64,000 bases of DNA, taken from the NCBI RefSeq assembly GCF_009931435.1, contig NZ_CP043414.1, one strand, 5' to 3'. The DNA is from Escherichia coli (lineage in GTDB: Bacteria > Pseudomonadota > Gammaproteobacteria > Enterobacterales > Enterobacteriaceae). The notes under the pieces are model-generated. The model had not been told where the DNA came from and did no database searches. It saw nothing but the letters and a program-made list of their open reading frames with translations. Shown here piece by piece: positions 55,301 through 58,771 of this stretch (position 1 is its first letter; each line of letters starts with the position of its first letter). Position numbers and translations under genes: made by a program.

Positions 55301-56716
55301 TTATTTCAGCCCCAGGGCGGCTTTCATGGTGTAGAAGAGATCGGTCTGGTCGGTCAGTCCAACGACATTGGCGGCATGTGGGCCATACGCCGCAATACGC
55401 AGCTGACTACCGGTATGTTCTTGTGAATCCTCTTCGGAGTTCCCGTAACTCATCACCATCACTGCGCCATCTTTGGTATTTAGCGCCTGGGTGAGGCCCG
55501 GCGCTTTGGTGTCCGGCGCGACAATCTGGCTGGCGTGGGCGTGATCAGCGGTGACTATGACCAGCGTGTTGCCATCCTTTTTAGCGAATTCCAGCGCCCG
55601 TTGTACGGCTTCGTCGAGATCGACCGTCTCGCCAATTTGCCCACAAGGATTCGCCGCGTGATCCTGTTTATCGATTGATGCACCTTCAACTTGCAGGAAA
55701 AAGCCTTTCTCATTTTTACTCAACAATTCAATGGCTTTATCAGTCATCTGCGCCAGGGTCGGTACGCTGTCATTACGTTGCGGATTAGGCGTACAGGTAA
55801 CTGCGGGCTTGTCGATATTGCCGTGGTACGTTGCTTTCGGTCCTTGCCAGCGCACTGGCATATTGCCGTCAGCAAACAGTCCTAGCAGGGGTTTTTGCTG
55901 GTTCGCTTCCGTCACCGCATTCAGTGAGGCAGCATCGCTCACCAACTGATAACCACGCGCCTGCGCCTGTTCACGCAGCGTTTTTCCCTGCCATTCACCG
56001 GCGGTTGCCGTTTCCGCAAAGGTTTTTGCGCCGCCGCCAAGCGTAACATCGGCACGGGCGTTAAGCAGCTGTTCGGTAATCGATCCTTTTCCGCCTTTTT
56101 CCAGCGCGTTACGCGGACATTTTTCACTGGTCGCGCTCGGACCGTAGCATTTGCGCGAAGTCACATGCGCCACCAACGCGGCGGGAGTGGCATCCTGCAA
56201 CTCTGCGGTAGAAACGTTACCGGTCGCCAGCCCTGCGGCTTTTGCCATTTCCAGAATCGTTGGGTGATCTTTTTCATGAATATCGACACCCAATGCGCCG
56301 TTATAGGTTTTGACACCGGTTGACCAGGCAGTTGCTGATGCAGCCGAGTCGGTAACGTAGTCCGGTTTGCCGGTTTTTTTATTCAGCGCATAGTGAGTGT
56401 ATTGCCCGGTAAGCGGTAAGGCATCAATACCTTTAAAAAAGCCGCCCGCACCTTCGGCATAATTACGTGCGGCAGTAATTTCCGAATCCCCCATCCCATC
56501 GCCAATCAGCAAAATAATATTTTTTGCAGGCTTATCGCTAAGAGAATCACGCAGAGCGGCGCTCTGATCACCCGTTAAGCGGCGAGCACCGCCGGGTGCA
56601 GTAATATCGCCCTGAGCAGCCCGGTTTTCCAGAATAGGCATTTCTGGTGTCCGGGCTTTTGTCACAGGGGTAAACAGTAACGGTAAGAGTGCCAGTGCAA
56701 TAGTGCTTTGTTTCAC
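55301..56716 (-). CDS. phoA: Alkaline phosphatase
   Basis: Start set at the GTG ([21 protein letters not shown]), giving 471 aa; active-site region DSAASATAW. Confidence 0.95.
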
Positions 56717-56776
56717 TTTATTTTCTCCATGTACAAATACATTAAAAAATAAAAACAAAGCGACTATAAGTCTCAG

Positions 56777-56796
56777 CCGTGACAGCTTTATGACAG
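56777..56796 (-). promoter_or_regulatory. Pho box in the phoA promoter
   Basis: Minus strand reads CTGTCATAAAGCTGTCACGG, followed by TATAGT. Confidence 0.85.
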
Positions 56797-56816
56797 CTGT
56801 TGAAAAGATTACCTTT

Positions 56817-57077
56817 TTACTGACGAGGATGCTTCAATAACTTCTTTACATAATCGCGCAGCAGCTCCGTATCGTCGTCAGGAATGCTGGCATCGGGCTT
56901 TACCTCGTAAAGTGCCCCCTCAACCTGATCAATCAACCGCTGTTGGTCATTTTGCGCCATATTACGAAGCATTGCAGTGACGATAATCTCCAGTGCTTCT
57001 ACCTGCGCGCACAGTTCTTTCGACTCTTCTTCTTTTTGGGCAAGCTTAAATAACAACTCAGCAATGAGATTTTTCAT
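56817..57077 (-). CDS. iraP: Anti-adapter protein IraP
   Basis: Track ORF, 86 aa. Confidence 0.92.
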
Positions 57078-57539
57078 GTCTGTATTTCCTTATCCAAAGT
57101 ATGGAGAAGTTAACATTATGCTTCACAACTTCATAGTGTCTGGAGGTAGTATTTTTATGACGAATGAAATACTTTGCGCAAATATTTTTTCCATATTTAT
57201 CAGCGAAACGTTTCTCTTATTTAAATAAGTAACCATACAAAGTATAGGTTTTTAATTATCAACCTTTATTATAAGTAAAAGTTATGAAATATATTCTCTT
57301 TGCTAACTTATAATTAAGAGAAAAAAACTCACTGCATGGCCATTTAAACCAGGAATAAATTAGCTTCCCGTTCATCATTTTTGTGATCTTGCGCACATCT
57401 TTGAGATAACGCACTTTCTTCACCAGTACGTTGCACACTTTGTCAGTAGAAGATTGCAACATTCTGTCAGAAGGCCGCGAATCCCCCGTTTTGTCGTGGT
57501 AATGTATGCACTTTGTGTTAGACGGGATAGGTTTTCAAG

Positions 57540-58634
57540 ATGGAAAAACTGCGGGTAGGAATCGTTTTTGGTGGTAAATCAGCGGAACATGAAGTGTCTT
57601 TGCAATCGGCAAAAAACATTGTCGATGCCATTGATAAAAGTCGCTTCGACGTTGTGCTGCTGGGCATTGATAAACAAGGGCAATGGCACGTCAGCGATGC
57701 CAACAATTATCTGCTAAATGCAGACGATCCTGCCCATATTGCGTTGCGCCCTTCGGCGACCAGTCTTGCGCAGGTGCCTGGTAAACATGAGCATCAGCTT
57801 ATCGACGCACAAAACGGTCAGCCATTGCCGACGGTGGATGTCATTTTCCCGATTGTTCACGGTACGCTAGGCGAAGATGGTTCCTTGCAGGGAATGCTGC
57901 GGGTCGCCAATTTACCGTTTGTGGGTTCTGATGTTTTGGCGTCAGCGGCCTGTATGGATAAAGATGTCACCAAACGTCTGCTACGCGATGCCGGGCTGAA
58001 CATTGCGCCATTTATTACCCTGACACGCACCAATCGTCAAAACATCAGTTTTGCCGAAGTGAAGTCAAAACTGGGGTTACCGCTGTTTGTAAAACCCGCT
58101 AACCAAGGCTCTTCTGTTGGTGTCAGCAAAGTAACCAGTGAAGAAGAGTACGCAATTGCCGTCGATCTGGCGTTCGAGTTCGATCATAAAGTGATCGTTG
58201 AGCAAGGGATCAAAGGTCGTGAGATCGAATGCGCGGTTCTGGGCAACGACAATCCGCAAGCCAGTACCTGTGGCGAGATCGTACTAACCAGCGATTTCTA
58301 TGCCTACGACACCAAGTACATTGACGAAGATGGCGCGAAAGTGGTGGTTCCGGCAGCCATTACGCCTGAAATTAACGATAAGATCCGGGCAATTGCCGTT
58401 CAGGCTTATCAAACGTTGGGTTGCGCAGGCATGGCGCGTGTAGACGTGTTTTTAACCCCAGAGAACGAAGTGGTAATCAACGAGATCAACACACTGCCAG
58501 GCTTCACCAACATCAGTATGTATCCGAAGCTGTGGCAAGCCAGCGGTTTGGGTTACACCGACCTGATCACACGTCTGATCGAGTTGGCGCTGGAGCGTCA
58601 CGCTGCGGATAACGCATTGAAAACCACAATGTAA
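57540..58634 (+). CDS. ddlA: D-alanine--D-alanine ligase A
   Basis: Track ORF, 364 aa. Confidence 0.95.
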
Positions 58635-58640
58635 TTTTTA

Positions 58641-58670
58641 AATGCCCAATAACTGTTATTGGGCATTTAA
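58641..58670 (+). terminator. Hairpin after the ddlA stop
   Basis: atgcccaataa-c-tgttattgggcat palindrome followed by ttaa. Confidence 0.5.
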
Positions 58671-58682
58671 GACTGTAAGATT

Positions 58683-58771
58683 GCCTGATGCGCTTTGCTT
58701 ATCAGGCCTACAAGATAATTGCAATATACTGATTTTGTAGGCAGGATAAGGCGTTCGCGCCGCATCCGGCA
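58683..58771. repeat. Pair of REP elements (BIME-like) after ddlA
   Basis: gcctgatgcgctttgcttatcaggcctac and gtaggcaggataaggcgttcgcgccgcatccggca. Confidence 0.8.

What the first reader, a model, noticed from the sequence alone, without database searches (positions are those of the whole stretch)
57118..57228. Possible 36-codon small ORF with RBS in the iraP-ddlA spacer
An ATG at 57118, preceded by ggag about 10 nt upstream, opens a 36-codon ORF (MLHNFIVSGGSIFMTNEILCANIFSIFISETFLLFK) with a hydrophobic C-terminal half, in a very AT-rich spacer that should also contain the iraP and ddlA promoters. It could be an unannotated small protein or a chance ORF.
Basis: inference. Interest (0 to 1): 0.3.

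Follow-up and report, generated by a model that had tools for sequence, protein, structure and literature searches.

The report
Chance ORF over iraP promoter DNA
The 36-codon reading frame is really in the sequence, but it is most likely a chance ORF lying on the opposite strand of the promoters and a conserved repressor-type binding site of the stress gene iraP, not a gene for a small protein.

Summary
ATG 57118 opens a 36-codon ORF ending at TAA 57226-57228, with GGAG 11 nt upstream, in a 34% GC spacer of an E. coli genome (phoA-iraP / ddlA).

The ORF shows no sign of being a gene:
- 53.5% of dinucleotide shuffles of the spacer contain an ATG-ORF at least this long.
- The frame is truncated or shifted in all six other Escherichia lineages sampled and in at least 72 of 5,426 complete E. 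coli genomes.
- Third codon positions vary least.
- pN/pS is about 0.8 against K-12, versus 0 for iraP and 0.05 for ddlA.
- It is not annotated in MG1655 or by PGAP, and has no Pfam or NCBIfam match.

What is conserved under the ORF is DNA read on the other strand:
- Two published iraP transcription start sites map to 57100 and 57144.
- The ORF's ATG abuts the proximal extended -10, and its GGAG is that promoter's discriminator.
- A LacI-type palindrome at 57200-57219 matches the rbsD (RbsR) operator at 18 of 20 positions. Its core is exact in 59 of 80 enterobacterial species, whatever the frame.

No usable ribosome-profiling data could be obtained, so low-level translation is not excluded. 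The RbsR-like site upstream of iraP is the one lead worth testing.

The parts
57118..57228 (+). The 36-codon ORF of the finding (ATG to TAA). Judged a chance ORF.
   Evidence: sequence. (53.5% of shuffles give an ORF this long). (frame not conserved, no coding signature).
57103..57106 (+). GGAG, the SD-like motif 11 nt before the ATG. On the iraP strand it is the CTCC of the proximal promoter's discriminator. It is present only in Escherichia.
   Evidence: Citrobacter and Salmonella carry G(C/T)TGACG here.
57076..57228 (+). In-frame 50-codon extension from an ATG that overlaps the iraP start codon on the other strand. It has been called 'hypothetical protein' in a few E. coli records.
   Evidence: (P0019: 6 member sequences, 29 contigs; P0017 is the window-type allele).
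57157..57228 (+). Internal in-frame ATG giving a 23-codon ORF. It is preceded by GGAGG at 57142-57146 in this strain and in O157:H7; most E. coli have GGAAG. It shares the same non-conserved C-terminus.
   Evidence: (-10.6 kcal/mol).
56817..57077 (-). iraP coding sequence (86 aa, anti-adaptor that stabilises RpoS).
57085..57091 (-). iraP Shine-Dalgarno AAGGAAA. Its core is invariant across 25 species.
57100..57115 (-). Proximal iraP promoter core: TSS at 57100 (A) and extended -10 TGTTAACTT at 57107-57115. The ORF's ATG starts 3 nt beyond it.
   Evidence: TSS 400587 (U00096.2; 23-nt 5' UTR) in Kim et al. 2012 and in Cappable-seq, score 168. The motif assignment is my inference from the sequence.
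57144..57181 (-). Distal iraP promoter: TSS at 57144, A/T-rich -10 region CATAAAAAT at 57151-57159, -35-like TTGCGC at 57176-57181. It covers ORF codons 9-22.
   Evidence: TSS 400543 (U00096.2), Cappable-seq score 298. Motifs located, block conservation. The hexamer assignment is inferred.
57200..57219 (.). LacI-family-type palindrome TCAGCGAAACGTTTCTCTTA, a putative RbsR operator centred about 65.5 bp upstream of the distal TSS. It supplies the ORF's 'SETFL'.
   Evidence: 18 of 20 positions identical to the K-12 rbsD operator region. CGAAACGTTT is exact in 59 of 80 species, 111-128 nt upstream of iraP. It is the only long invariant block in the 25-species alignment.
57259..57462 (-). 67-codon ORF that PGAP annotates as 'hypothetical protein'. 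Probably also spurious.
   Evidence: annotation. (flagged frameshifted or with an internal stop in several E. coli). (stops in other Escherichia). (no family).
57540..58634 (+). ddlA coding sequence (D-alanine--D-alanine ligase A), which bounds the spacer.

Best explanation
The 36-codon frame is a chance ORF on the non-template side of the iraP control region. The stretch works as DNA, not as a coding sequence.

Read on the iraP strand, it holds two promoters. The proximal one starts at 57100 and has an extended -10 at 57107-57115. The distal one starts at 57144, with an A/T-rich -10 near 57151-57159 and a -35-like TTGCGC at 57176-57181. About 20 bp upstream of that -35 lies a 20-bp LacI-type palindrome (57200-57219), most similar to the RbsR operator of rbsD.

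The ORF's 'features' are by-products of these elements. Its ATG lies in the ATTATG that abuts the extended -10. Its GGAG is the complement of that promoter's CTCC discriminator. The apparent conservation of 'M.H..', 'S.IFM.KE' and 'SETFL' mirrors the conserved promoter blocks and the palindrome.

Shown: the TSS positions (published data), the DNA-level conservation, and the lack of frame conservation and of a coding substitution pattern. Inferred: the hexamer assignments, RbsR as the protein that binds the palindrome, and the absence of translation.
For: - **Length is at chance level.** 53.5% of 5,000 shuffles give an ATG-ORF of 36 or more codons.
- **The frame is not kept in other Escherichia.** There is a stop at codon 9 in E. 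whittamii and Escherichia sp. E1V33. Indels shift the C-terminus to '...QRNVSLI' or otherwise in E. albertii, sp. MOD1-EC7003, and the representatives SCPM-O-B-8794 and E69.
- **The frame is not always kept within E. coli.** 2 of 11 sampled alleles are frameshifted at a T-run. The T5 allele (25 aa) occurs in 72 of 5,426 complete genomes, against 5,081 with T6.
- **No coding pattern in substitutions.** Variable sites by codon position across 18 Escherichia, Citrobacter and Salmonella sequences are 11, 12 and 8 of 19, so the third position varies least.
- **No purifying selection.** pN/pS against K-12 is 0.097/0.122, compared with iraP 0/0.149 and ddlA 0.007/0.151. Against other genera the ratio is 0.64-2.2, or 0 synonymous against 19-20 nonsynonymous changes, no better than the two off-frames.
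- **Promoters overlap the ORF.** The published iraP TSSs map to 57100 and 57144.
- **The palindrome is conserved whatever the frame.** Searches show this.
- **No annotation or family support.** There is no gene here in curated MG1655 or PGAP. The exact 36-aa peptides are absent from a 15-billion-protein collection. There is no Pfam or NCBIfam hit.
- **No obvious way to transcribe it.** The only consensus-like + strand promoter (57110-57137) would start downstream of the ATG.
Against: - The ORF is intact, at 35-36 codons, in most E. coli sampled. ORFs of 35-36 codons from the same ATG also exist in three Citrobacter spp., C. koseri and two Salmonella subspecies.
- The GGAG pairing (-6.4 kcal/mol) is as good as iraP's own SD, and only 4.4% of ATGs in the window have one as strong.
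- A 50-aa in-frame version has been called by some annotation pipelines.
- Translation was never tested. The ribosome-profiling and opposite-strand TSS tables I could reach were truncated before this locus or strand, or held no entry for it, or were not held at all, and Kim 2012 listed no opposite-strand TSS here in a cut file. Pervasive low-level translation of such ORFs is documented in E. coli (Stringer et al. preprint).
Confidence: 0.85

Rival explanations
1. It is a young, Escherichia coli-restricted microprotein or proto-gene. An antisense or divergent transcript crosses the iraP promoter, and ribosomes start at ATG 57118 using the GGAG. The peptide is made at a low level, with or without a function.
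For: The ORF is intact in about 94% of complete E. coli genomes (T6 allele in 5,081 of 5,426). GGAG is conserved within Escherichia. The 19-residue hydrophobicity maximum of 1.69 is marginally compatible with a membrane helix. Many non-conserved sORFs are translated in E. coli. Sporadic 'hypothetical protein' calls exist.
Against: pN/pS is about 0.8 and there are 8 amino-acid changes in 36 between two E. coli strains. A frameshift allele is carried by 72 genomes. No upstream + strand promoter was found by the scan. The 11-nt SD spacing is long. The gene is absent from the curated MG1655 set, which includes experimentally validated small proteins (that it includes them is my own knowledge).
Confidence: 0.1
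2. The real unit is the internal 23-codon ORF from ATG 57157, which in this strain has a strong GGAGG 10 nt upstream.
For: The anti-SD duplex is -10.6 kcal/mol, in the top 0.3% of ATGs in the window. The ATG is conserved in Escherichia, Citrobacter and Salmonella.
Against: GGAGG is a strain polymorphism; most E. coli have GGAAG. The ATG sits inside the distal iraP -10 region, which explains its conservation. The C-terminus is the same frame-unstable segment. The predicted + strand start near 57144 would cut into the SD.
Confidence: 0.03
3. It is an upstream or leader ORF in a long ddlA 5' UTR that tunes ddlA expression.
For: It is on the same strand as ddlA and 311 nt upstream of its start.
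Against: Where the ORF-like frame persists outside Escherichia, in Salmonella and C. koseri, ddlA is not within the 2 kb upstream of iraP. No terminator or attenuator structure was found between the ORF and ddlA. No TSS evidence was available.
Confidence: 0.02

Closest known systems
Non-conserved intergenic sORFs of E. coli ('pervasive translation' class; Stringer et al. 2021 preprint, 10.1101/2021.07.02.450978)
   Same: It is short, AT-rich, intergenic, unrelated to any family and not under purifying selection.
   Different: For those ORFs an initiation peak was measured. For this one no translation evidence could be obtained at all.
iraP promoter region (ppGpp/DksA-activated; Bougdour & Gottesman 2007 and Girard et al. 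2018, both cited in PMC10948607 and neither readable here)
   Same: It is the same locus. The TSSs at -23 and -67 from the iraP ATG fall under the ORF, and the sequence between the distal -10 and its start site is A/T-rich.
   Different: I could not read the primary papers, so which of the two starts is the ppGpp-activated promoter is not established here.
RbsR operator of the rbsDACBK operon (LacI family; Mauzy & Hermodson 1992, cited in PMC10965054)
   Same: It is a palindrome with a central CG. 18 of 20 positions are identical to TCAGCGAAACGTTTCGCTGA upstream of K-12 rbsD, and it contains the AAACGTTT core reported for RbsR.
   Different: It lies upstream of the -35 rather than over the start site, one arm has T for G, and binding has not been shown. 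A site at this position could activate or repress.

Membership tests
Functional small protein gene (sORF) | Intact ORF with a start codon and a plausible ribosome-binding site | tested here: met
   ATG 57118, GGAG at 57103-57106, -6.4 kcal/mol, 11-nt gap.
Functional small protein gene (sORF) | Reading frame kept in related species | tested here: not met
   There is a stop at codon 9 or a frameshift in all six non-coli Escherichia representatives. Lengths vary from 8 to 47 codons. A T5 frameshift allele is present in 72 E. coli genomes.
Functional small protein gene (sORF) | Purifying selection on the protein (pN/pS well below 1, third-position excess of change) | tested here: not met
   pN/pS is 0.8 against K-12 and 0.64-2.2 against other taxa, no better than the off-frames. 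The third position varies least.
Functional small protein gene (sORF) | Length or composition beyond chance | tested here: not met
   53.5% of shuffles give an ORF at least as long. Hydrophobicity is within the range expected from base composition.
Functional small protein gene (sORF) | Transcript that covers the RBS and ORF on the coding strand | tested here: inconclusive
   No consensus-like + strand promoter lies upstream of 57103; the only one would start near 57144. The Cappable-seq table held is cut before the relevant strand. Kim 2012 lists no such TSS, but it is a sparse set and the file is cut.
Functional small protein gene (sORF) | Ribosome initiation peak or detectable protein | not testable with these tools
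   The Stringer supplement held is cut at about 0.6 Mb of the + strand. The Weaver preprint has no supplement held, and the mBio version is not held.
Functional small protein gene (sORF) | Membership of a described protein family, or a curated annotation | tested here: not met
   No Pfam or NCBIfam match at E<=1. Nothing is annotated in MG1655 or by PGAP. The exact peptides are absent from the protein collection. Only sporadic hypothetical-protein calls of a 50-aa form exist.
Sigma-70 promoter region of iraP | Experimentally mapped primary 5' ends | tested here: met
   U00096.2 positions 400543 and 400587 correspond to window 57144 and 57100 (Cappable-seq; Kim 2012 for 400587).
Sigma-70 promoter region of iraP | -10 and -35 like elements at the right distance, conserved across species | tested here: met
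   TGTTAACTT ends 7 nt before 57100. CATAAAAAT and TTGCGC lie upstream of 57144. The blocks are conserved in Escherichia, Citrobacter, Salmonella and beyond. The hexamer choice is inferred.
LacI-family (RbsR) operator | 16-20 bp palindrome with central CG that matches a known operator | tested here: met
   18 of 20 positions match the rbsD operator region. The next best match in the 64-kb window is 15 of 20.
LacI-family (RbsR) operator | Conserved position upstream of orthologous genes | tested here: met
   The exact CGAAACGTTT occurs in 59 of 80 species, 111-128 nt from the iraP ATG, in two offset classes about 12 nt apart.
LacI-family (RbsR) operator | Bound by RbsR, and iraP expression changes in an rbsR mutant or with ribose | not testable with these tools
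   Only indirect evidence exists. Salmonella delta-rbsR has less RpoS protein without a change in rpoS transcription, and shares the Succ+ phenotype with delta-iraP (PMC10965054).
Leader peptide / uORF of ddlA | Conserved linkage to the regulated gene | tested here: not met
   ddlA is within 2 kb upstream of iraP only in Escherichia, three closely related Citrobacter spp. and a few other loci at about 1.6-2 kb (L013, L062 and others). It is absent there in Salmonella and C. koseri, where a similar frame persists.

The most novel reading that the evidence does not exclude
The part of the 'ORF' that is truly conserved, the palindrome at 57200-57219, may be an RbsR (ribose repressor) site that places iraP, and through it RpoS stability, under ribose control across Enterobacteriaceae. 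That would give a direct mechanism for the unexplained finding that Salmonella rbsR mutants have less RpoS protein and share the delta-iraP Succ+ (growth on succinate) phenotype. I found no paper in the searchable library that links RbsR to the iraP promoter, but databases such as RegulonDB and RegPrecise could not be consulted.
Probability: 0.4. Interest if true: 0.5.

Novelty: not a real feature. Interest (0 to 1): 0.12.

Why it matters
As a candidate gene it does not matter. It is a clean example of how conserved promoter and operator DNA in an AT-rich spacer can look like a conserved small ORF, with a conserved ATG, an SD look-alike and a conserved 'motif'. The same caution applies to the 67-codon 'hypothetical protein' that PGAP annotates 30 bp away. 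The useful by-product is a testable regulatory lead: a deeply conserved RbsR-type operator upstream of iraP could connect sugar availability to RpoS proteolysis.

Tried and rejected
- **Rfam, both strands of 56600-57700 at E<=1.** Only two chance-level hits, nothing real.
- **Ribosome-profiling evidence.**
  - The Stringer et al. supplement held covers only about the first 0.6 Mb of the + strand.
  - The Weaver et al. preprint has no supplement held and its main text does not mention the locus; the mBio version is not held.
  - The supplements of 'Cryptic Bacterial Microproteome' and smORFer gave no hit for the peptide or the coordinates, but some of those files are cut.
- **Primary iraP promoter papers.** Bougdour & Gottesman 2007 and Girard 2018 are not held.
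- **Opposite-strand TSS data.** The Cappable-seq file is cut before the minus strand.
- **Homology search with the 36-aa peptide.** The 83-aa GTG-extended frame was used instead.
- **Counting the T7 frameshift allele.** The search returned no match although strain E02 carries it, presumably because of the low-complexity mask, so that allele's frequency is unknown.
- **My first proximal promoter assignment.** I first took CATAAT (57115-57120) as the proximal -10. The mapped TSS at 57100 lies 15 nt downstream of it, so the extended -10 TGTTAACTT fits better.
- **The ddlA leader-peptide idea.** Rejected for lack of synteny.
- **PurR and Cra as binders of the palindrome.** From the consensus sequences as I recall them, PurR matches 5 of 8 positions per half-site and was set aside. 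Cra shares the 10-bp core but not the flanks, and is kept as a lesser alternative.

Full report
**Where we are.** The window is Escherichia coli. The region 56800-57560 is 100% identical to strain 2013C-4282 and about 95% identical to K-12. The local genes are phoA (- strand), iraP (-, 56817..57077), a 462-nt spacer, and ddlA (+, 57540..58634). Window position x corresponds to NC_000913.3 position 458463 - x. U00096.2 coordinates are 776 lower; this is confirmed by iraP being listed at 400610-400870.

GGAG is at 57103-57106, 11 nt before the ATG. Its pairing to the anti-SD is -6.4 kcal/mol, comparable with iraP's own SD at -6.2. The ORF is 30% GC. The C-terminal half is hydrophobic (GRAVY 1.51), but the whole-peptide value of 1.15 is inside the 5-95% range for random stop-free peptides of the same T-rich composition.

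**Is it more than chance?** No.
- In 5,000 dinucleotide-preserving shuffles of the spacer, 53.5% contain an ATG-ORF of 36 or more codons, and the median longest ORF is 37 codons.
- The real spacer also contains a 37-codon and a 67-codon ATG-ORF on the other strand.
- The SD look-alike is the only mildly unusual feature. 4.4% of all ATGs in the window have one as strong.

Using IraP as a handle, I fetched 80 species loci and read the strand opposite iraP from the homologous ATG, 41 nt upstream of the iraP start.
- Other Escherichia lineages:

| Lineage | Outcome |
|---|---|
| E. whittamii, Escherichia sp. E1V33 | Stop at codon 9 |
| E. albertii | 31 codons with a shifted C-terminus |
| sp. MOD1-EC7003, representative SCPM-O-B-8794 | 35 codons ending '...QRNVSLI' instead of '...SETFLLFK' |
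| Representative E69 | 47 codons, shifted C-terminus |

- Within E. coli, 9 of 11 sampled alleles keep 35-36 codons and two are frameshifted at a T-run.
- The T5 allele (25 codons) is carried by 72 of 5,426 complete genomes, against 5,081 with T6.
- Three Citrobacter spp., C. koseri and two Salmonella subspecies do have 35-36-codon ORFs from the same ATG, so the ORF is not simply an E. coli accident. That persistence needs its own explanation, which the DNA-level conservation described below provides.

**Substitution pattern.**
- Across 18 Escherichia, Citrobacter and Salmonella sequences that align without gaps over the first 19 codons after the ATG, the variable sites per codon position are 11, 12 and 8 of 19. 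The third position varies least, the opposite of a coding signature.
- Between the window strain and K-12 the ORF differs at 11 of 111 nt, giving 8 amino-acid changes.
- pN/pS for that pair is 0.097/0.122. The same strain pair gives 0/0.149 for iraP and 0.007/0.151 for ddlA.
- Against Citrobacter, Salmonella, E. albertii and E69, the ratio in the ORF frame is 0.64-2.2. For the two Salmonella it is 0 synonymous against 19-20 nonsynonymous changes. None of this is better than the two off-frames used as controls.

**What is conserved instead.**
- Cappable-seq (Ettwiller et al. 2016, PMC4782308) lists three start sites on the iraP strand at U00096.2 400543 (score 298), 400561 (3.3) and 400587 (168). 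These map to window 57144, 57126 and 57100.
- Kim et al. 2012 (PMC3415461) independently list 400587 as the iraP TSS with a 23-nt 5' UTR, and give the upstream sequence.
- Read on the iraP strand, TGTTAACTT (57107-57115) ends 7 nt before the proximal start. CATAAAAAT (57151-57159) and TTGCGC (57176-57181) are placed appropriately for the distal start (the hexamer assignment is my inference).
- The ORF's ATG is therefore part of the ATTATG that abuts the proximal extended -10, and its GGAG is the complement of that promoter's CTCC discriminator. Outside Escherichia the GGAG is replaced by G(C/T)TGACG. ORF codons 9-22 lie over the distal core promoter.

**The palindrome.**
- The C-terminal 'SETFL' is the translation of TCAGCGAAACGTTTCTCTTA (57200-57219).
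- It matches the operator region upstream of K-12 rbsD, TCAGCGAAACGTTTCGCTGA, at 18 of 20 positions. The next best match in the 64-kb window is 15 of 20.
- Where indels shift the frame, the same DNA reads 'QRNVSL'. What is conserved is the DNA, not the peptide.
- In a 25-species alignment covering more than a dozen genera it is the only long invariant block upstream of iraP.
- The exact CGAAACGTTT is present in 59 of 80 species, 111-128 nt from the iraP ATG. It falls into two offset classes about 12 nt apart, roughly one helical turn.
- This explains why a frame can stay open from Escherichia to Salmonella. The start and several internal blocks are held fixed for other reasons and happen to carry no stop in that frame.

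**Annotation and databases.**
- Curated MG1655 has nothing between ddlA and iraP.
- PGAP annotates only a 67-codon ORF on the other strand.
- The exact 36-aa peptides (window and K-12 types) are not among 15 billion predicted proteins.
- A 50-aa in-frame extension from ATG 57076 has been called 'hypothetical protein' in a handful of E. coli records (P0019: 29 contigs).
- There is no Pfam or NCBIfam match and no Rfam family.

**Transcription of the ORF strand.**
- The consensus scan finds only one + strand promoter-like site (TTAACA-16-CATAGT, 57110-57137). It would start near 57144, downstream of the ATG.
- No + strand gene lies immediately upstream; phoA and iraP both run the other way.
- Published TSS tables for that strand were not available in the stored files.

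**Verdict.** With about 85% confidence, this is a chance ORF over the iraP promoters and an upstream operator.
- The main rival is a non-conserved, possibly translated, E. coli-restricted sORF, at about 10%. It cannot be excluded because none of the ribosome-profiling material I could reach covered this locus and strand.
- An internal 23-codon ORF from ATG 57157 has a strong GGAGG in this strain (-10.6 kcal/mol). It shares the same unstable C-terminus and its SD is polymorphic.
- A ddlA leader ORF is unlikely, because linkage to ddlA is not conserved.

**A lead outside the finding.**
- Wenner et al. 2024 (PMC10965054) found that Salmonella rbsR and iraP mutants both gain growth on succinate and both have less RpoS protein. 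rpoS transcription was unchanged in the rbsR mutant. The authors left the mechanism open and suggested an indirect route through rbsD.
- A conserved RbsR-type operator centred about 65.5 bp upstream of the distal iraP start would offer a direct route.
- I found no paper in the searchable library that makes this link. I could not consult RegulonDB, RegPrecise or the RbsR genomic-SELEX paper.
- Binding is untested, and Cra shares the 10-bp core.

Noticed in passing
window 57200-57219: A 20-bp palindrome, TCAGCGAAACGTTTCTCTTA, is 18/20 identical to the K-12 rbsD (RbsR) operator. Its core CGAAACGTTT is exact in 59 of 80 enterobacterial species at 111-128 nt upstream of iraP. It may link RbsR and ribose to iraP and RpoS stability; Salmonella delta-rbsR has low RpoS by an unexplained route (PMC10965054).
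   Followed up: partly
window 57259-57462 (- strand): PGAP annotates a 67-codon 'hypothetical protein' here in most E. coli. It carries an internal stop or frameshift in ST131 and other strains and in other Escherichia species, is restricted to E. coli and Shigella records, and matches no family. It is probably an over-annotation in the same AT-rich spacer.
   Followed up: partly
L094 (E. coli O121 strain 201805972), locus 1383-2480: IS1 elements replace the iraP 5' end and the whole promoter and operator region, so this strain lacks an intact iraP. Only 34% of the query region is left.
   Followed up: no
window 56800-58634: The window strain is unusually far from K-12 at this locus. Synonymous divergence is about 0.15 in both iraP and ddlA, and only 18 of 5,424 records are at least 99% identical over 761 bp. 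This suggests a divergent lineage or an imported segment.
   Followed up: no
window 57186-57191 (T-run in ATATTTTTTC): The homopolymer length varies among E. coli: T5 in 72 genomes, T6 in 5,081, T7 in at least strain E02. The run lies between the distal -35 and the palindrome, so it changes their spacing by 1 bp either way. An effect on iraP regulation is conceivable.
   Followed up: partly
window 58598-58740: Two short ORFs on opposite strands have near-identical N-termini (MPNNSYWAFK / MPNNCYWAFK) just downstream of ddlA. This indicates an inverted repeat, probably a REP-type element or terminator.
   Followed up: no
window 57110-57144: A + strand promoter-like site (TTAACA-16-CATAGT) sits back-to-back with the iraP promoters and would start near the distal iraP TSS on the other strand. 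This could be a divergent (bidirectional) promoter arrangement.
   Followed up: no
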